Part shown: positions 431 to 6,804 of the stretch, piece after piece
Layout of the letters: each line of letters starts with the position of its first letter
Numbering within the stretch: position 1 is the stretch's first letter
From: a virus
Taxonomy: Duplodnaviria; Caudoviricetes
IMG/VR virus record: IMGVR_UViG_3300011339_000451
Coordinates: 1-63,187 of that record
DNA: 63,187 nucleotides
Reading direction: 5' to 3' (one strand)
The notes under the pieces: model-generated
Told to the model about the DNA's origin: nothing
Seen by the model: only the letters and a program-made list of their open reading frames with translations
Databases searched by the model: none
Made by a program: the position numbers and the translations under genes

Positions 431-631
431 TCACAGCCGCTTCTCCCGCTCGGCCATCAGTGCCTCAGCCAGATCAAAGATTTTCACTGCGGCGGCTTCA
501 GGGTCATCGTCTTCGTAGATCAATCCAATCGTTGCTGACATGGCGTACCAGTCCAGCATCGTTATGTCTTGGATTGAAATGGGGTCTGGCGTCAGGGCTT
601 TGATACCCTCACTTTTTTTCTTTAGTACCAT
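431..631 (-). CDS. Hypothetical phage protein
   Basis: ITMLDWYA...DLAEALMAEREKR; similar in pattern to 7613-7816. Confidence 0.65.
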   Translation of the reverse strand: MVLKKKSEGIKALTPDPISIQDITMLDWYAMSATIGLIYEDDDPEAAAVKIFDLAEALMAEREKRL

Positions 632-932
632 TCTTCTTCCCCTTCATATTCTGGTGGACGATCATGGATTCAAACTGTTCATGCAATCTGTCGGCAATTG
701 TTTGGTTGTCTATGGCAATACGTGAAGCCGCATCGTCCTCATGCAGTTGTTCAATGGCGTCACGGATACCCTTGTTGTAGCCAGCGTTGAACTCGTCATC
801 GCCATCTACGATCATGGTGATAGCGTCACGCACTAAGGCCGAGGCTTTGCGCTCTCCTGCCGCCAGCTTCAGCTTGTCGTAGATGTCCTTACGCAAGTGA
901 ACTGAGTATGGAATCAGACGGTTGTTTTCCAT
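609..932 (-). CDS. Putative ribbon-helix-helix DNA-binding protein
   Basis: N-terminal YSVHLRKDIYDKLKLAA...ASALVRDAI fits an RHH strand-helix-helix pattern. Confidence 0.55.
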   Translation of the reverse strand: MENNRLIPYSVHLRKDIYDKLKLAAGERKASALVRDAITMIVDGDDEFNAGYNKGIRDAIEQLHEDDAASRIAIDNQTIADRLHEQFESMIVHQNMKGKKNGTKEKK

Positions 933-1336
933 GCTTGGTACTCCTTATAAATCCCGCGCAGTTGTTCGATTGCACGGGCGTTGTTTTTAATCTCTGTTCT
1001 GGATTCAATGCTCAGTGTTTCTTTGAGCCAGTCCGTAGCTTCTTCCTCACTCATCAGGAAGATGTGACCACCTTCTTGTAGGAACTTGTGGAAGCCCGCA
1101 TCCCTGCAAAGCATTCCGGCAATACGAACGTAGTCGCTGGATAAGTCTTGCTCTCTATCCATTGGCCGTTCGTCAGTATTAAGGCGCACCATGACCACCT
1201 GATAACGAGAGCCAACGAAGTCACGCATGATGGCTTCGTCGATCTCATCGGGGTGTATGTTCAATGTCAACATATACCCCGTCTTATCTTGCTTGAGTGC
1301 TACCTTTACAGCTTCAAAGTGTGGATGACTCTGCAT
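914..1336 (-). CDS. Hypothetical phage protein
   Basis: 140-aa ORF in a contiguous leftward operon. Confidence 0.75.
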   Translation of the reverse strand: MQSHPHFEAVKVALKQDKTGYMLTLNIHPDEIDEAIMRDFVGSRYQVVMVRLNTDERPMDREQDLSSDYVRIAGMLCRDAGFHKFLQEGGHIFLMSEEEATDWLKETLSIESRTEIKNNARAIEQLRGIYKEYQAWKTTV

Positions 1337-1353
1337 AAAGTAATACCAAAGTA

Positions 1354-1638
1354 CTAAAATGGGATGTCTGAGTCGTCAAGCTTGGGCGCTGGTGCCGCGC
1401 TTGGCTTTTTGTACGTGCTGACCTTGATGCTAAAGAACTTGCCGTACTGACCTTCTTTGATCCATGCGCCAAGGTTGATCTTGACTGAATCTTCGCCAAC
1501 GTCTTGCGCTTCGCGGATCATCTCTTTCAAGAGGGATGCGTCGATGTCCAAGCTACCAGTGTAGTCGGGTGAGTTGGGGTTGATCTTGGGTTGCTTAGCC
1601 TTGCCGAGCATTCCTGAGTTTGGATATTTGGTAGCCAT
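1354..1638 (-). CDS. Putative ssDNA-binding protein
   Basis: NSPDYTG motif and acidic C-terminal DDSDIPF tail; adjacent to ERF gene. Confidence 0.7.
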   Translation of the reverse strand: MATKYPNSGMLGKAKQPKINPNSPDYTGSLDIDASLLKEMIREAQDVGEDSVKINLGAWIKEGQYGKFFSIKVSTYKKPSAAPAPKLDDSDIPF

Positions 1639-1640
1639 GA

Positions 1641-2354
1641 TTAGCCTTTCATTTCTTCTTTACGGTTTTTGAATTCCAGCATGAGTGCTGTGTAGCTTGC
1701 TTCGTCTTCGGCTTTTAACTTCTCGAACACGATGCGGTTGTTGGTGAACAGCTTCATAATGTCGCCTTCTGATGCTGTCTCGGCCAACCCTATCTTAGTG
1801 ATGTCAGTGACCAGTGCCGCCCATGATGCAACGTCTGTTCCGGGATCAGCCGTTACCTTCAGGTGCCAGCTCTTCTCGTCCTTACCCTCCACCACTTCTG
1901 GCGGCTTACCCGTTGGCTTGGGTGCAGGCTTAGGCTCAACCTTTGGTTCAGCTTTTACAACTGGCTTAGGTGCTGGCTCGGCGGCAGGAGCAGAGTCGAT
2001 GATGTCATGTTCCACGATCTCCATGGCTGTCATCCAAAGGTAACGGCGTTGATAGGATTCAACCGCGCCTAGGTTCTGTATGGGGTGAGCACCCTTCAGG
2101 TTAGCCTCGGCCATTGGGCTAGTGATAACAACCACTGTGCCGTCATCTACGTCTGTGATGCACAGGGTTGCGTACTCGCTATTGAATGACACCACGCCGC
2201 ACAGTCCAATCTCGTTAAAGATTGTTTGGATGTGAGGGATGAAGTCACCCAACTCAAAGTATGAGTAGCCTGCAAACTTATTCAGGCCAGACTTCTTCAT
2301 CTCTGTGGATTGAAGCTTGACCCTCGCTTGCATTAACTTTTTATGGACTGACAT
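1641..2354 (-). CDS. ERF-family ssDNA-annealing protein
   Basis: KKSGLNKFAGYSYFEL and QNLGAVESYQRRY motifs; Pro/Lys-rich linker. Confidence 0.85.
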   Translation of the reverse strand: MSVHKKLMQARVKLQSTEMKKSGLNKFAGYSYFELGDFIPHIQTIFNEIGLCGVVSFNSEYATLCITDVDDGTVVVITSPMAEANLKGAHPIQNLGAVESYQRRYLWMTAMEIVEHDIIDSAPAAEPAPKPVVKAEPKVEPKPAPKPTGKPPEVVEGKDEKSWHLKVTADPGTDVASWAALVTDITKIGLAETASEGDIMKLFTNNRIVFEKLKAEDEASYTALMLEFKNRKEEMKG

Positions 2355-2604
2355 TTAAAGCTTCCTTTGCTAATTGTTTTTTCTTCATGGCGTAACGGCG
2401 GTTGTATTCGCGTTGCTTCTGTTTACGATGTTCGTCTGTAACTTTGGCTCGCGTCTTCTTGGTTGGCAGGGATTCAACCTTTCCTTCCAAGACTTTGATC
2501 TTCGCAGAAAGCATGATGTTTTCCGTGACCACTTTGTCAATTGTTTCCTTCAGCTTCCTCAGCTTGTCATTGATCGCTTGCTTTTCTTCGTTTGATATAA
2601 ACAT
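2341..2604 (-). CDS. Hypothetical coiled-coil, basic protein
   Basis: 87-aa ORF with heptad pattern and basic tail. Confidence 0.65.
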   Translation of the reverse strand: MFISNEEKQAINDKLRKLKETIDKVVTENIMLSAKIKVLEGKVESLPTKKTRAKVTDEHRKQKQREYNRRYAMKKKQLAKEALNVSP

Positions 2605-2607
2605 GAT

Positions 2608-3501
2608 TTACTCCATCGTTAAGTAGGTTTGGTATTGCTTGCAGAACTGGGACACTTGGCAGTAACTCTTGCACCGTGTCCTCTCCCCTTGTCTGACTTC
2701 CACTGAGAACTTCTCGCTCTTCTTGGCTGATGCCTGAGCCGCTTCCATCGCGGCAGTGGCTTCCTCGAATGTCTCGTGAACACTCTTGGCTCTGACGTTG
2801 CCGTCCTTCTTCACGGCGTAGCTGGTCTTCTTCTCCCACATTTCTTCTGATGTGCATTCAGGCATCTCGCCGTCAGTCTCCATCTCAAAGAGTGCTGTGC
2901 CGTGTTCGTAGATACGCTTGGTAATGAATGCCTCACGCTCCTCAAACGTCCACAGTGGGATGTCGATAGTGGCCACTGGCGACTGGGGATAGTTCTCCTT
3001 CGTAGCGGCATCGCGGGCAGACCAGTCGCGAATGATGGCAATGATCTGAAGCTTACCAACTGGCACCTTCTTGACCTTCTCCACCATCCACGCATAGATG
3101 TTGAGCTGACGATGCCAGTCGTCCTTCTCATTCATCACTGCCCATGCACCAGTAACTTTGTAGTCACTGATTGTGATCGTGCCGTTGGGTTCTACTTCTT
3201 GTAGATCAATAGCACCAGAGATATGCCAGCCTTCAAACTCAAGGTGGATGCGCTCTTCAACAATGTGGTGCTCGTCCTTGCCGTGCTCAAGAATGTTGTG
3301 CACAGCAGATCCGAACAGTGACCACACCATCTCGCTTGCGTCCTGCTCAATCTCGTCCCAGTACTTCTTCTTCAACTGCACGATGCGGGGTGAGTTGATG
3401 ATCTCTGTTGCTGAGATGTGCGCCTTACCTTTGGAATAGGTCGGCCTATGTATCACATTGAGGAAGGTCTGGGGTAAGTTGAACTTGTTGGTGAACTTCA
3501 T
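2608..3501 (-). CDS. PD-(D/E)XK (RecB/Cas4-like) exonuclease
   Basis: ISGAID...ISDYK...QLNIY motifs; C-terminal Cys cluster C...RCKSYCQVSQFC. Confidence 0.85.
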   Translation of the reverse strand: MKFTNKFNLPQTFLNVIHRPTYSKGKAHISATEIINSPRIVQLKKKYWDEIEQDASEMVWSLFGSAVHNILEHGKDEHHIVEERIHLEFEGWHISGAIDLQEVEPNGTITISDYKVTGAWAVMNEKDDWHRQLNIYAWMVEKVKKVPVGKLQIIAIIRDWSARDAATKENYPQSPVATIDIPLWTFEEREAFITKRIYEHGTALFEMETDGEMPECTSEEMWEKKTSYAVKKDGNVRAKSVHETFEEATAAMEAAQASAKKSEKFSVEVRQGERTRCKSYCQVSQFCKQYQTYLTME

Positions 3502-3977
3502 GGCTGATCCCTGTCTGCAATACGCTGAAGCTCACGCTTCTCAATGCTTAACATTCCTGCTAGCTTTGAGATCTTTGCTTGCGCGTCTGCGTTCTTCTTG
3601 CGACCTTCGTCAGTAAGTAGCTCAGTCTTGGTAAAGCTGACGCCCATGGCCATGCGCTTCATCTCGCGGCCAATAGCCTTGACACCAATGTCAACTGCAT
3701 GTTGTGTCTGAGACTCAGGTTCAATGATGACGTAGTTACCTGCGTGATCGCTGACCATTAACATACAGTGGGCCGTCAGTAGGATGTCTTTAATCTCTGT
3801 GATGCAACGCAGAACTTCAAGGTCGTAGCGGCGAACATCGCTGATGTCCACTGGCTTGGGTACTTCGCATAGGTCTGCCAAGTACGTGCGCTTTAGTACG
3901 CTACCGTACGTTAAGCCGTTGTCGAGCAAAGTCTTAACGGCTTGCTTCCAAGCAGGAAAGAGTTTGGGATCGCTCAT
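3498..3977 (-). CDS. Unknown 159-aa protein coupled to the RAMP-like gene
   Basis: 4-nt ATGA overlaps with both neighbours; no family recognised. Confidence 0.75.
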   Translation of the reverse strand: MSDPKLFPAWKQAVKTLLDNGLTYGSVLKRTYLADLCEVPKPVDISDVRRYDLEVLRCITEIKDILLTAHCMLMVSDHAGNYVIIEPESQTQHAVDIGVKAIGREMKRMAMGVSFTKTELLTDEGRKKNADAQAKISKLAGMLSIEKRELQRIADRDQP

Positions 3978-4543
3978 ACAAACTCCACGCTGAAACGACC
4001 GAAGCGGGGACGGTAGTCACCCAGACCAATCAATGCACCTGCATCGACCAGAGCCTTCTTTACTTCGTTCACGTTAACAACGTCTTCGTTCACAACAACT
4101 GTTGCTGATAGTGTCCAGTTACGGAAGATGGGACGATAGCGAATGATCTTGGCCATGCCGACCTTCACGCCACGTGCGTCAATGGCCTTTGGGTTTTCCC
4201 ACAACTTCTCTGGAGTCATGTTCTTGAAGCCGTCAATGGGTAGCTCGTCTTCCAATACCTGCACGCCCTGCTTGAACTTAACGCCAAGCTTCTGAAGCTT
4301 TGCCGCCGCGATCAGGCATGAGTCAAGGTTCTGCGCTGGAATAAAGAAACCCTTGTCTTCGTTCCAGTAGCAACCACCGATGAACTCGCTTCGTGCAATC
4401 GCAACGTGGTCGTCATCTGTCTTCTTGCGCTTGCTGGTCAGCTCTTTGTGAGCCTTGGCCAGAGGGTCTAACGGGTTTGCAAACCTGTCAGAGTGCATGA
4501 GTAAGGACGATGTGCCTGTAATTTTCACTGGGATAGTTTTCAT
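3974..4543 (-). CDS. RAMP/Cas7-like RNA-binding protein (candidate effector of the adjacent array)
   Basis: N-terminal strand VKITGTSSLLMH, FFIPAQNLDSCL helix, YRPIF..W, C-terminal Gly-rich loop GALIGLGDYRPRFGRF; AAGGAA RBS. Confidence 0.75.
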   Translation of the reverse strand: MKTIPVKITGTSSLLMHSDRFANPLDPLAKAHKELTSKRKKTDDDHVAIARSEFIGGCYWNEDKGFFIPAQNLDSCLIAAAKLQKLGVKFKQGVQVLEDELPIDGFKNMTPEKLWENPKAIDARGVKVGMAKIIRYRPIFRNWTLSATVVVNEDVVNVNEVKKALVDAGALIGLGDYRPRFGRFSVEFV

Positions 4544-4574
4544 TTTGTTTCCTTTAAGTTGTTTGATGCACTGT

Positions 4575-5145
4575 TTGCATCGGACATAAGACTGTTACCA
4601 ATCCTATGGCCGCTACATTAGCCCTAGCCGTGCCGCGTCATGCCATGCCGAGCCAAGCCCAGCCTAACCTCAGCAAGCGTTGCCACTAACACTCGAAGGA
4701 GCACTCATTGAATGCTCTATCGACTGTTGTCAGTCCATGCCAAGCCTCGCCTAGCCTCGCCTCAGCGCTCCATTCCAAACCCCAACTCGCCGCAACACTC
4801 GAAGGAACACTCGTAAGAATGTTCTATCGGCTGTTGCCAGCTCCATGCCCGTCCTCACCAGTCCCCGCCTCGCCTCGCCGTTCCGAGGCTTGCCGATACT
4901 CGAAGGAGAACTATTGCTAATTCCCTATCGGCTATCGCTAGCTCCATGCCCAACCCGACCTTGCCCAGCCTCCCATGCCCGTGCCCGCCCCACCGCACCG
5001 TGCCAGACCAGACCTAGCCTCACTAACACTCGAAGGATGACTGTTGCCAATCACCTATCGACTATTTCTAGTTCCCTGCCCGACCACACCCGACCGAGTC
5101 GCGCCGTACCTCGCCGTGCCTTGCCGATCCGTATCCAGCCATGCC
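4575..5145 (-). ncRNA. Array of five candidate guide RNAs, each a GGY-NN pentamer tract plus a 3' hairpin
   Basis: Tracts at 5071-5145, 4941-5019, 4840-4894, 4732-4791, 4620-4684; ACTCGAAGGA (+ strand) recurs at 4691, 4797, 4898, 5028; hairpins show compensatory changes. Confidence 0.85.
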
Positions 5146-5173
5146 GGTAAGTAAACCAGTTAGGTTGGTGTCG

Positions 5174-5202
5174 ATTGTACCTGCTATATTGTATGAATGC
5201 AA
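5174..5202 (-). promoter_or_regulatory. Sigma70-like promoter for the array and RAMP operon
   Basis: TTGCAT-N17-TACAAT on the minus strand, ~30 nt upstream of the first tract. Confidence 0.6.
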
Positions 5203-5240
5203 TATGTCTGATAAAATAAATGCAATATGTAGGGAAATCC

Positions 5241-5528
5241 ATGAGATACGCAAACCGCATTGACGCCAATCAAAACAAAATAGTTGAAGCTTTACGCAAG
5301 GCTGGCGCTTACGTCCGTATCATTTCTCAGGGTGACGGAATACCGGATTTGCTGGTGGCGTACAAGGGATACACGATACTGATGGAAGTTAAGGATGGCG
5401 ATAAGCCGCCGTCTGCCCGTAAGCTGACTGAGGCGGAGCAGAAGTTCTTTGACGAATGGACGGGTGGAATGTTGGTTGTTGTGAATTCTGTTGAGGAAAG
5501 TGTTGCAACGTTGCAGAAGTGCGATTAA
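5241..5528 (+). CDS. VRR-NUC / resolvase-like endonuclease
   Basis: RIDANQ...GIPDLLV...MEVKD...KLTEAEQKF. Confidence 0.8.
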   Translation: MRYANRIDANQNKIVEALRKAGAYVRIISQGDGIPDLLVAYKGYTILMEVKDGDKPPSARKLTEAEQKFFDEWTGGMLVVVNSVEESVATLQKCD

Positions 5529-5585
5529 TATCTTGCCAACCAGAGGGCTGGATTGTTTGTTGCTTTGTTCTCCTTGTGAAGGTTT

Positions 5586-5614
5586 GCGGCTCCGTAACTG
5601 GGGCCGCCTTTTTT
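5586..5614 (+). terminator. Intrinsic terminator
   Basis: GCGGCTCC-loop-GGGGCCGC followed by a T run. Confidence 0.7.
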
Positions 5615-5619
5615 AGGGA

Positions 5620-5702
5620 CAACACGCATGGGGATTGAGTCGCCTCACCTTGTACCAGTAAAGTGGTGCCGTCATAAGCAAGGTCAGTCCCCAGCCGTGT
5701 TG
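5620..5702 (+). ncRNA. Candidate nested stem-loop RNA
   Basis: CAACACG/CGTGTTG, TGGGGATTG/CAGTCCCCA, ACCTTG/CAAGGT nested. Confidence 0.4.
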
Positions 5703-5771
5703 GTGAAACTAAGTTCACCCCGCCTTGGGTACCGACGAATAGATTCGCCCTGTCGCTTGAAGAAATCGGTT

Positions 5772-6014
5772 ATGGCCATCAACATATTCATCTATACAAA
5801 ATCAAACTGTCCCAACTGTGTTGCGGCCAAACAACTTCTGAAGTCCAAGGGTCTGTCCTTTGTTGAGTGCGACATGGACGATCCGGCGGTACGTGAGAGC
5901 TTCATGTTCACCCACCCTGACGCTAAGCAGATGCCACAGATATTCATAGACGACCAGCGTGTCGGCGGATTAGCTGGCTTGAAGGTAGCGTTAAACCAAC
6001 TGAGTCTGCTGTGA
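5772..6014 (+). CDS. Glutaredoxin
   Basis: IYTKSNCPNC, MPQIFI, VGG; start moved to ATG 5772. Confidence 0.9.
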   Translation: MAINIFIYTKSNCPNCVAAKQLLKSKGLSFVECDMDDPAVRESFMFTHPDAKQMPQIFIDDQRVGGLAGLKVALNQLSLL

Positions 6015-6205
6015 CCTACGGCTGTCACAACCGTCCGGCTTTCAAGCCTAAGTTCTTTGTACAAAACGGCTGGTGGATAGATGGCCGCACTCGCACCGCG
6101 AAGGTGGAGCAGGCACCATTCCGCATGGCACCAGACTGTCAGTACACCAAGACCGACCTTGGCCGAGCAGACGAACGTTGTAAAGATTGCAAACACAAGC
6201 AATAG
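6011..6205 (+). CDS. Small Cys-containing hypothetical protein
   Basis: GCHNR...DCQY...RCKDC; overlaps the glutaredoxin stop. Confidence 0.6.
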   Translation: MTYGCHNRPAFKPKFFVQNGWWIDGRTRTAKVEQAPFRMAPDCQYTKTDLGRADERCKDCKHKQ

Positions 6206-6209
6206 GGTC

Positions 6210-6238
6210 TTGACAAGTCCAGTAGCGTTTGATATAAA
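6210..6238 (+). promoter_or_regulatory. Sigma70-like promoter
   Basis: TTGACA-N17-TATAAA. Confidence 0.7.
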
Positions 6239-6244
6239 CGGGGT

Positions 6245-6443
6245 GTTGTCGTAGTGGACAGCAAACCTTGAAGCCGTTATCTCATGCCTCTGTCCCTGTT
6301 ATTGGGGATCCACTACCGGGGGCAGTAGATAGCGGCTTTTTTGTTTTCGAGACTGAAGTGAGTGGTGGGTTAGCGCCACCATAGGGTTCACTCCTTTGTA
6401 TTGCGGACGTAAAACACTGCTTTATGTGAGTCACTTCAGTCTC
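6245..6443 (+). ncRNA. Candidate structured RNA(s) downstream of the promoter
   Basis: AAGCCGTTATCT/AGATAGCGGCTT plus T run; GTAGTGGA/TCCACTAC; 13-bp inverted repeat 6349-6361/6431-6443. Confidence 0.5.
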
Positions 6444-6804
6444 TCCTCCTACGGCAACTGGCACCAGAGTTCTATCGGGTTTTGGGCTGGCATGAGGGAG
6501 GCGTTGGAAGCCGCAAGGCGTAGACCGCAGTCCACCAGTCCTACAACGTTCTTATCTGGGGCGAGAGCGCATAAGAAGATGCAAGCGCGAATGGAGGAGA
6601 TGCCAGTGGTGTCCGTGGTTCAATTCTGCGGGTGGCGCTACTGGTTCGGGCGACCATGCTAGACGAGGTTACTCTCGGAAAGTGCTCGATGGTGGAGGAA
6701 GTAACTTCCAATCCACCCCGCCGGATACTCAGCCAGTGGCTCCGTCGTGGAAGATCTGCCGTAAGGGATTCGGTTCCCCTAGGCAGAGTCTTGCCCACCG
6801 AAGC

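What the first reader, a model, noticed from the sequence alone, without database searches (positions are those of the whole stretch)
4575..5070. Repeated hairpin with compensatory base changes after each tract
Seen, minus strand. H1: AATA G TCGA TAGG TGATTG-GCAA-CAGTCA TCCT TCGA G TGTT. H2: GATA G CCGA TAGG GAATTA-GCAA-TAGTTC TCCT TCGA G TATC. H3: GCAACA G CCGA TA GAACATTC-TTAC-GAGTGTTC CT TCGA G TGTTGC. H4: AACA G TCGA TA GAGCATTC-AAT-GAGTGCTC CT TCGA G TGTT. H5 (diverged): CATAGGATTG-GTAA-CAGTCTTATG. Stem sequences change while pairing is kept. G-U pairs and three GNRA loops work on the minus strand, matching the promoter direction. Inference: a processing signal or 3' cap that separates individual guides.
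Basis: partly seen in the sequence, partly recalled or inferred. Interest (0 to 1): 0.8.

Follow-up and report, generated by a model that had tools for sequence, protein, structure and literature searches.

The report
Structured 3' tails of VIPR guide RNAs
The repeated hairpins are real, evolutionarily conserved RNA structures that end each guide RNA of a phage VIPR system, a CRISPR-like DNA-silencing weapon first described in 2026 preprints, so this is a well-supported new example of a known kind.

Summary
Observation confirmed. Five hairpins lie on the minus strand, one after each GGY-NN pentamer tract (4565-5072). Pairing is kept through compensatory changes, both among the 4 canonical window copies (5 of 17 pairs) and in homologues: 89 + 100 distinct copies from 95 of 102 related loci, 94-97% paired.

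They are the 3' "tails" of vrRNAs of a VIPR system. The parts are a promoter, five guide+tail units, the Vipr RAMP gene (3974-4543) and vap (3498-3977). "Processing signal" stays untested.

- The tail is not the SUSP1 pseudoknot.
- Guide 1 matches a P4-type integrase motif at 26 of 28 coded positions by the published 1-nt-skip rule. It gave 9 hits in 401 genomes against 0 for a reversed control.

This scan has already noted at least 8 VIPR loci on other DNA. Verdict: new member of a known kind.

The parts
5174..5202 (-). Putative sigma-70-type promoter of the array: TTGCAT, 17 nt, TACAAT.
   Evidence: Read from the sequence. It matches 8 of 12 consensus positions, so the scan (threshold 9 of 12) did not list it. 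A -35/-10 pair stands at the same place before the arrays of relatives even where the sequence between differs (L016, L013, L008). Inferred, not shown.
5149..5166 (-). Conserved leader between the promoter and the first guide tract.
   Evidence: The same motif precedes the first tract in L004, L005, L014, L016 and L017.
5073..5145 (-). vrRNA1 guide tract, about 14-15 GGY-NN pentamers.
   Evidence: Period-5 GG scan. The guide read by the 1-nt-skip rule matches integrase genes at 26 of 28 positions.
5025..5072 (-).
   Evidence: Fold of -19.9 kcal/mol, z -3.7. Covariance-model hit of 85.9 bits. Coordinates.
4943..5019 (-). vrRNA2 guide tract, about 16-17 pentamers with an internal shift of register by one base.
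   Evidence: Two overlapping period-5 phases, parsed by hand. No target found.
4894..4942 (-). Tail 2 (H2): P1 4931-4942, P2/P3 4901-4930, 3' strand to 4894.
   Evidence: Fold of -18.6 kcal/mol, z -2.7. 88 bits.
4842..4893 (-). vrRNA3 guide tract, about 11 pentamers.
   Evidence: The 10-unit core found nothing in viral contigs.
4792..4841 (-). Tail 3 (H3): P1 4830-4841, P2/P3 4800-4829, 3' strand to 4792.
   Evidence: Fold of -25.7 kcal/mol, z -4.5. 87.1 bits.
4735..4791 (-). vrRNA4 guide tract, 12 pentamers (2 with a degenerate GG).
   Evidence: The 10-unit core matches 3 related viral contigs, 20 of 24 over the whole guide.
4688..4734 (-). Tail 4 (H4): P1 4723-4734, P2/P3 4694-4722, 3' strand to 4688.
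   Evidence: Fold of -22.5 kcal/mol, z -4.0. 78.6 bits.
4623..4672 (-). vrRNA5 guide tract, about 10 pentamers.
   Evidence: The core found nothing in viral contigs.
4565..4622 (-). Terminal tail variant (H5): P1 with a 3-nt loop 4612-4622, long hairpin 4581-4612, extra hairpin P4 4565-4581.
   Evidence: Fold of -22.1 kcal/mol, z -4.4. The same variant ends the arrays of relatives. RNAalifold on 24 terminal units predicts P1 (4 sequences with a compensatory change) and P4 (6 sequences with G-C changed to A-U).
4547..4554 (-). Ribosome-binding site of vipr.
   Evidence: AAGGAAAC, 3 nt before the ATG.
3974..4543 (-). vipr: 189-aa single-domain RAMP (Cas7-like) protein.
   Evidence: 41% identical to the SUSP1 gene flanked by GGY-NN tracts. 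AlphaFold2 pLDDT 89.9. Best PDB folds are Csm3 and type VII Cas7, E 5e-6. Matches phrog_4652. 729 relatives.
3498..3977 (-). vap-like accessory gene, 159 aa, overlapping the vipr stop by 4 nt.
   Evidence: 28% identical (E 4e-24) to the gene after vipr in LESphi2 and 19% (E 5e-7) to that in VpaE1. Matches phrog_5926. No Pfam or PADLOC hit.

Best explanation
The hairpins are the structured 3' tails of five vrRNAs of a type II-like VIPR system carried by a 63-kb freshwater phage.

Proposed course of events:
1. One promoter (about 5174-5202, minus strand) drives a precursor that runs through five guide+tail units into the vipr-vap mRNA.
2. Each unit is a tract of about 10-17 GGY-NN pentamers followed by a tail of about 48 nt.
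3. Vipr protomers bind the GGY of each pentamer and expose the NN dinucleotides.
4. The NN dinucleotides read double-stranded DNA with one skipped base per pentamer. This is the published mechanism.
5. The tail marks the 3' end of each guide. It serves as a stable cap and as the clade-specific handle from which the Vipr filament is built 3' to 5'. It thereby also delimits neighbouring guides.

Tail structure in this clade:
- P1 is a 4-bp mini-hairpin of the form RCUR, loop, YAGY.
- P1 abuts P2 (CGA/UCG).
- A 2x2 internal loop follows.
- P3 is an 8-bp stem whose top carries a conserved A-U, U.G, U-A block.

What is shown here: the structure, its strand, its conservation, and membership of the locus in VIPR.
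What is taken from the preprints on SUSP1: the capping and loading role.
What is inferred: the single precursor, and the way the units are separated.
For: Structure
- Folds and strand asymmetry.
- 4 window copies: 94% paired, 5 pairs changed on both sides.
- Model R1, built from the window alone, finds 108 copies in 45 of 99 sources. 104 of them lie on the vipr strand.
- In its 89 distinct rows P2+P3 is 96.9% paired, and 12 of 14 pairs changed on both sides. Slid controls give 38-47%.
- MAFFT plus RNAalifold on 28 copies, not fitted to any model, gives the same helices, with 12 of 16 pairs compensatory.
- Model R2 finds 128 further copies in 51 of 58 further sources, all on the vipr strand. 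Its 100 distinct rows have P1 100% paired and P2+P3 94.2% paired, with 10 of 12 pairs changed on both sides.
- P1 pairs: G-C 63, A-U 21, other 1. The fourth pair holds in 88 of 89.

VIPR membership
- Vipr homology and fold.
- vap homology.
- SUSP1 has one upstream and three downstream tracts, as the preprint states.
- Tails are conserved while tracts differ between phages whose Vipr is 96-97% identical.

Guide function
- The vr1 core hit extends to 26 of 28 positions, in phase with codon positions 1-2 of an integrase (Arm-DNA-bind_3, Phage_int_M and Phage_integrase domains).
- 9 hits with at most 3 mismatches in 8 of 401 genomes of one family, against 0 for the pattern read backwards.
- No self-target.

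Role of the tail
- Passages of the preprints.
Against: - There is no RNA-end or expression evidence for this phage. One contig from an RNA library covers 4505-5098, but DNA carry-over cannot be excluded and contigs show no ends.
- The tail does not resemble the only tail with a solved structure. R1 and R2 give no significant hit in SUSP1 or VpaE1, so its role is transferred by analogy.
- The structure preprint could not see a tail marker in its P. fulva complex.
- Alignments A4 and A7 were fitted to the models and lean towards them.
- Copies are related by descent, so the shuffle counts are not probabilities.
- Three of five guides (vr2, vr3, vr5) found no target. The vr4 match did not extend beyond its core: 0 of 4 flanking positions.
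Confidence: 0.85

Rival explanations
1. The tail is first of all an endonuclease processing site. In the long-hairpin form (outer stem + P2 + internal loop + P3, about two helical turns) it would be cut on its 3' side by a host double-strand RNase such as RNase III. This would resemble the T7 early-transcript sites, leaving the upstream guide with a protective hairpin and freeing the next guide. P1 would form only afterwards. This overlaps with the best explanation rather than excluding it.
For: - The units abut without spacers, and no terminator-like site lies in the array. If there is one precursor, some cut is therefore needed.
- The outer stem shows some covariation. An A at the 3' partner occurs only with U (12 of 25) and never with C (0 of 63). 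A G-C swap follows loop changes.
- The long hairpin is the minimum-energy fold.
- Internal tails have the outer stem, while the terminal tail has P4 instead.
- Some other VIPR types intersperse hammerhead ribozymes, which shows that arrays need cutting.
- The comparison with T7 RNase III sites is recalled, not tested.
Against: - The outer stem is only 65% paired.
- It is absent from the more distant clade, whose tails keep P1 and carry a separate small hairpin.
- A G.G mismatch sits in the long hairpin where P1 would give a C-G pair.
- No RNA ends are known.
Confidence: 0.25
2. The hairpins are transcription terminators or attenuators that make each guide a separate transcript or that tune vipr expression.
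For: They are stable G+C-containing hairpins at the end of each unit. The terminal tail and P4 lie directly before the vipr ribosome-binding site.
Against: - No run of U follows any of the five.
- The terminator scan finds none in 4544-5210 on the minus strand.
- No promoter-like site lies between units.
- The conserved unpaired bases and the U.G block point to recognition by a protein.
Confidence: 0.04
3. The repeats act as DNA, for example as iterons, a replication origin or recombination sites between the divergent genes, and not as RNA.
For: The element is a 690-bp intergenic region with direct and inverted repeats next to recombination genes (Erf, a PD-(D/E)XK exonuclease).
Against: - Pairing depends on G.U pairs that exist on one strand only.
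- 232 of 236 model hits lie on the vipr strand, wherever the array sits relative to the gene.
- The element travels with vipr-vap through unrelated phage backgrounds.
- SUSP1 vrRNAs were sequenced as RNA.
Confidence: 0.02

Closest known systems
vrRNA 3' tail of type II VIPR systems (Escherichia phage SUSP1 and the P. fulva prophage). Sources: bioRxiv 10.64898/2026.04.26.720920, 10.64898/2026.04.26.720927 and 10.64898/2026.10.15.759431.
   Same: - A conserved structured module of about 40-60 nt directly 3' of a GGY-NN tract.
- One tail per guide.
- The same gene partners, with Vipr 41% identical to that of SUSP1 and a vap homologue.
- The same kind of guide code.
- Phage-borne.
   Different: - The SUSP1 tail is an H-type pseudoknot. 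Here there is a mini-hairpin abutting a two-tier hairpin.
- Models R1 and R2 find nothing in SUSP1 or VpaE1.
- All five units lie upstream of vipr. SUSP1 has one upstream and three downstream.
- The P. fulva tail was not resolved in the structure preprint.
- Supplementary figures (S8, S9) that may show tail logos for that clade were not available to me.
CRISPR repeat hairpin and the 3' handle of class 1 crRNAs (Cas6 substrates)
   Same: A stem-loop ends each guide, separates neighbouring guides in one precursor, and stays on the mature RNA bound by a RAMP-family complex. Stems covary between systems. This comparison rests on general knowledge and on the preprint's own analogy.
   Different: - The tails within one array are not identical. 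In 26 arrays, 86 of 88 tails differ from the others in their own array in the P3 stem.
- The guide is a pentamer tract, not a contiguous spacer.
- No cas1, cas2 or cas6 is present. The neighbouring Cas4-like nuclease sits with Erf and SSB as a recombination module.
- Cleavage by a RAMP is not shown.
Hammerhead-interspersed VIPR arrays (other VIPR types)
   Same: A structured RNA module lies between successive guides of a VIPR array.
   Different: No known self-cleaving ribozyme, nor any other Rfam family, matches 3500-6500 at E of 1 or below, apart from a chance-level sRNA hit elsewhere.

Membership tests
VIPR system (Vipr + vrRNA + vap) | Vipr protein: a small single-RRM RAMP with a G-rich loop, homologous to the published Vipr. 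| tested here: met
   - 41-42% identity (E 1e-48 and 4e-57) to the SUSP1 gene that sits among GGY-NN tracts.
- AlphaFold2 pLDDT 89.9.
- The top 50 PDB folds are Csm3 and Cas7 of types III and VII.
- H17 and the terminal G-loop are invariant in 35 relatives.
VIPR system (Vipr + vrRNA + vap) | vrRNA guide: about 9-16 tandem YNNGG units with conserved GGY and hypervariable NN. | tested here: met
   - Five tracts of about 10-17 units.
- In 89 aligned copies GG is kept at 90-99% while the NN columns vary.
- Phages with 96-97% identical Vipr carry different tracts.
- vr2 has one shift of register and exceeds 16 units.
VIPR system (Vipr + vrRNA + vap) | A conserved structured 3' tail after each tract. 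| tested here: met
   
VIPR system (Vipr + vrRNA + vap) | An adjacent vap accessory gene. | tested here: met
   The 159-aa gene overlaps the vipr stop. It is homologous to the genes after vipr in LESphi2 and VpaE1. I did not compare it with a sequence named vap1 in the preprint.
VIPR system (Vipr + vrRNA + vap) | Guides match natural targets in rival mobile elements by the 1-nt-skip rule, with the skipped base at the codon wobble position and no self-target. | tested here: inconclusive
   - Met for vr1: 26 of 28 positions, in phase with codons, in an integrase. There were 9 hits against 0 for the control in 401 genomes.
- vr4 is weak: 20 of 24, with no extension beyond the core.
- vr3 and vr5 cores gave 0 hits. 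No collection scan was run for vr2, whose two parts gave no hit above shuffled guides locally.
- There is no self-target at 80% or above.
VIPR system (Vipr + vrRNA + vap) | Discrete RNAs of about 100 nt that co-purify with Vipr. | not testable with these tools
   Only contigs of public runs were available. One RNA-library contig covers 4505-5098, which shows neither transcription nor ends.
SUSP1-clade pseudoknot tail | Sequence and pseudoknot fold of the SUSP1 tail. | tested here: not met
   - R1 with filters off gives E of 0.89 or worse in SUSP1, VpaE1 and Medea1.
- R2 gives no hit in SUSP1 or VpaE1.
- By eye the SUSP1 and VpaE1 tails pair a hairpin loop with downstream bases, which the window tails do not.
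Intrinsic terminator | A G+C-rich stem followed by a run of U. | tested here: not met
   None on the minus strand in 4544-5210.
Known self-cleaving ribozymes and other Rfam families | A match to a curated covariance model. | tested here: not met
   cmscan of 3500-6500 at E of 1 or below gave only STnc320 at E 0.95, outside the array.

The most novel reading that the evidence does not exclude
The tail may be a two-state RNA. The same four to six bases pair either within the mini-hairpin P1 or with the conserved 3' GUGUU strand, and both pairings show covariation.

In the precursor, the long hairpin of about two helical turns would be the cutting site that releases each guide, by a host double-strand RNase or by a still unknown self- or Vipr-dependent cleavage. 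After the cut, P1 would form, stack on P2 and become the cap that Vipr recognises.

This would be a way of maturing guide RNAs that differs from Cas6, from tracrRNA with RNase III, and from the ribozymes seen in other VIPR types.
Probability: 0.12. Interest if true: 0.6.

Novelty: new member of a known kind. Interest (0 to 1): 0.3.

Why it matters
VIPR is a months-old class, and the preprints present it as an ancestor-like relative of CRISPR. How its guide arrays are matured, and what the tail contributes, is not stated in the text I could read.

What this locus adds:
- A well-populated tail family from the Betaproteobacteria and Pseudomonas branch: 189 distinct copies from 95 loci.
- A structure supported by covariation that differs from the one solved tail.
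- Candidate recognition elements: P1, the internal loop and the U.G block.
- An unexpected pair of competing helices.
- A concrete natural target class for this branch, namely P4-type integrases of integrated elements. This fits the published picture of phages silencing satellites and prophages.

None of this changes the kind of system. A specialist would find it useful rather than surprising.

Tried and rejected
Rejected readings
- Coding. The plus-strand ORFs 4708-4920 and 4845-5150 overlap the array, but the variation has a period of 5, not 3, and the element is conserved as structure.
- Terminators.
- DNA-level repeats, because of the strand asymmetry.
- Known Rfam families.

Steps that led nowhere
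- DNA search of 4400-5400 in the phage collection found only the vipr end of Medea1.
- PADLOC has no model for Vipr or vap.
- Guides vr3 and vr5: the 10-unit cores gave 0 exact matches in viral contigs.
- None of vr2-vr5 matches within about 20 kb of four integrase targets of vr1. The one vr2b value at 13 of 16 equals the shuffled maximum.
- No guide matches the window or 97 VIPR loci above shuffled guides at skip 0, 1 or 2.
- Public runs. All four runs that I laid, of the 24 listed, are held as contigs. An RNA-library contig over 4505-5098 and an adapter-like loose end at 4505 say nothing about transcription or ends.
- Within-array diversity of P3 stems (86 of 88) is about what random drawing from the pool would give. 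It shows a lack of homogenisation, not proven selection.
- The residues that the structure preprint names for GGY contacts could not be mapped with certainty, because the passage does not say whose numbering it uses.
- I did not run R-scape (not installed), complex prediction or the protein atlas.

Full report
**What is there.** The window is a whole 63,187-bp virus record, estimated 99% complete. Two genes flank a 690-bp gap: a plus-strand gene starting near 5220 and a minus-strand gene ending at 4543. On the minus strand this gap holds five units. Each unit is a G-rich tract with GG every five bases, followed by a hairpin. A promoter-like pair, TTGCAT-17-TACAAT, stands at 5174-5202. It is below the threshold of the consensus scan, but it recurs at the same place in relatives. 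No terminator-like site lies in the array.

- As minus-strand RNA the five hairpins fold at -18.6 to -25.7 kcal/mol, with z-scores of -2.7 to -4.5. The plus strand is weaker in all five.
- Over the four canonical copies, 94% of the cells in 17 pairs are paired and 5 pairs changed on both sides. No shuffle in 500 reaches the covariation score, and slid controls give 34-50%.

**Relatives.**
- The downstream 189-aa protein has 729 relatives in the large protein collection.
- It has 130 phage records with a match, from Pseudomonas phages to Felix O1-like coliphages.
- In LESphi2 and VpaE1 the gene is again preceded by GG-periodic tracts with hairpins.
- I fetched 80 viral and 17 genomic loci.
- A covariance model built from the four window copies alone (R1) found 108 copies in 45 of 99 sources. 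Of these, 104 lie on the strand of the protein gene. The other 4 form a second, inverted array in L028.
- In the 89 distinct rows the inner 14 pairs are 96.9% paired and 12 changed on both sides. Slid controls give 38-47%.
- An alignment not fitted to any model (MAFFT, 28 copies) gave the same helices by RNAalifold, with 12 of 16 pairs compensatory.
- A second model (R2) found 128 more copies in 51 of 58 further sources, all on the gene's strand. In its 100 distinct rows P2+P3 is 94.2% paired.
- The seven sources without a hit are SUSP1, VpaE1, four loci with truncated flanks, and the most distant locus, L100.

**Refined structure.**
- Its variable pairs covary cleanly. One is G-C 63, A-U 21, other 1.
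- P1 is 100% paired in the independent set and is present in every clade hit, including LESphi2.
It is 65% paired and is confined to the window's clade. Yet it shows covariation of its own: the 3' partner is A only when the 5' base is U.
- The energy model prefers the long hairpin by 4.6-8.1 kcal/mol. The two forms cannot coexist, and which one exists when is open.
- The upper stem carries a near-invariant A-U, U.G, U-A block (87 of 88 and 92 of 96 for the wobble). This is a likely protein contact and is proof of the strand.
- The fifth hairpin is a conserved terminal variant: P1, a long hairpin, then a small hairpin P4 before the ribosome-binding site. It resembles the tails of the more distant Pseudomonas and Comamonas prophage clade, whose arrays lie after vap.

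**What it is.**
- A full-text search led to bioRxiv 10.64898/2026.04.26.720920. That preprint describes VIPR systems as a lone RAMP protein (Vipr), an accessory gene (vap), and vrRNAs of 9-16 YNNGG repeats followed by a conserved structured 3' tail. The NN dinucleotides read DNA with one skipped base.
- Our protein is 41% identical to the SUSP1 gene that has one tract upstream and three downstream, as the preprint states.
- Its predicted fold (pLDDT 89.9) matches Csm3 and Cas7 best.
- The next gene is homologous to the genes following vipr elsewhere.
- Two further preprints, of which I read passages only, show the SUSP1 tail as a pseudoknot capping the 3' end, with the filament resolved from that end. 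They treat a shared tail as what makes a vrRNA competent for Vipr.
- A fourth preprint recovers VIPR arrays by their periodicity.

**Test of the guides.**
- Read by the one-base-skip rule, the guides have no match in the phage itself.
- A 10-unit core of guide 1 has one exact match in the viral collection. There the whole guide matches 26 of 28 positions, with the coded bases on codon positions 1 and 2 of a tyrosine integrase.
- I then searched 401 genomes of the family that holds a Rhodoferax MAG carrying a related locus. The full pattern with at most 3 mismatches occurs 9 times in 8 genomes, always at the same integrase motif. It occurs 0 times when read backwards.
- Guide 4 has a weaker match (20 of 24) at a connector-gene junction of three related phages.
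- Guides 3 and 5 found nothing. Guide 2 was not scanned against the collections, and its two parts found nothing above shuffled guides locally.

**Mechanism.**
- Shown: a conserved, strand-specific RNA structure ends every guide.
- From the literature on SUSP1: such tails cap the 3' end and go with Vipr loading.
- Inferred: a single precursor from one promoter, and separation of the units at or near the tails. How they are cut is unknown. Rfam finds no ribozyme. A host double-strand RNase acting on the long-hairpin form is a reasonable rival.

**Verdict.** This is a new member of a known kind. This scan has already noted at least eight VIPR loci on other DNA. Supplementary files of the preprints were closed, and they may already show this tail type.

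Noticed in passing
L028:838-1237 (minus strand) and L028:1996-2477 (plus strand): One related viral contig carries two tail-bearing arrays in opposite orientation about 0.8 kb apart. Four tails point away from vipr and five point towards it.
   Followed up: no
window 4943-5019: Guide tract 2 changes its 5-nt register by one base in the middle (a 4-nt unit) and is the longest tract, at about 16-17 units. How a Vipr filament would read across the shift is unclear.
   Followed up: partly
window 609-3501 (minus strand): Directly after vap come a Cas4-like PD-(D/E)XK exonuclease (2608-3501), an Erf-type annealing protein (1641-2354) and a short SSB-like gene (1354-1638). This looks like an ordinary phage recombination module, not part of the VIPR locus.
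   Followed up: partly
window 5220-5528 (plus strand): The divergent neighbour of the array is a 102-aa gene with weak PHROG matches to endonuclease and Holliday-junction-resolvase families. The same gene flanks the array in L004, L005, L014, L016 and L017.
   Followed up: no
A4 and A7 alignments, last repeat before the tail: The last pentamer before the tail is semi-conserved (GGCA-N-GG, with A in about 84% of copies). In 7 of the 10 integrase matches the last coded dinucleotide of guide 1 mismatches. The last unit may therefore belong to the handle rather than to the guide.
   Followed up: partly
L004, L016, L017 (about 2240-2330 in each): Whole guide+tail units recur almost unchanged in different phages, at different positions of arrays that otherwise differ. 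This suggests that units are exchanged as modules.
   Followed up: no
window 5500-5516: A palindromic TGCAACGTTGCA core lies inside the neighbouring region, as another first-stage note says. It is not related to the array.
   Followed up: no
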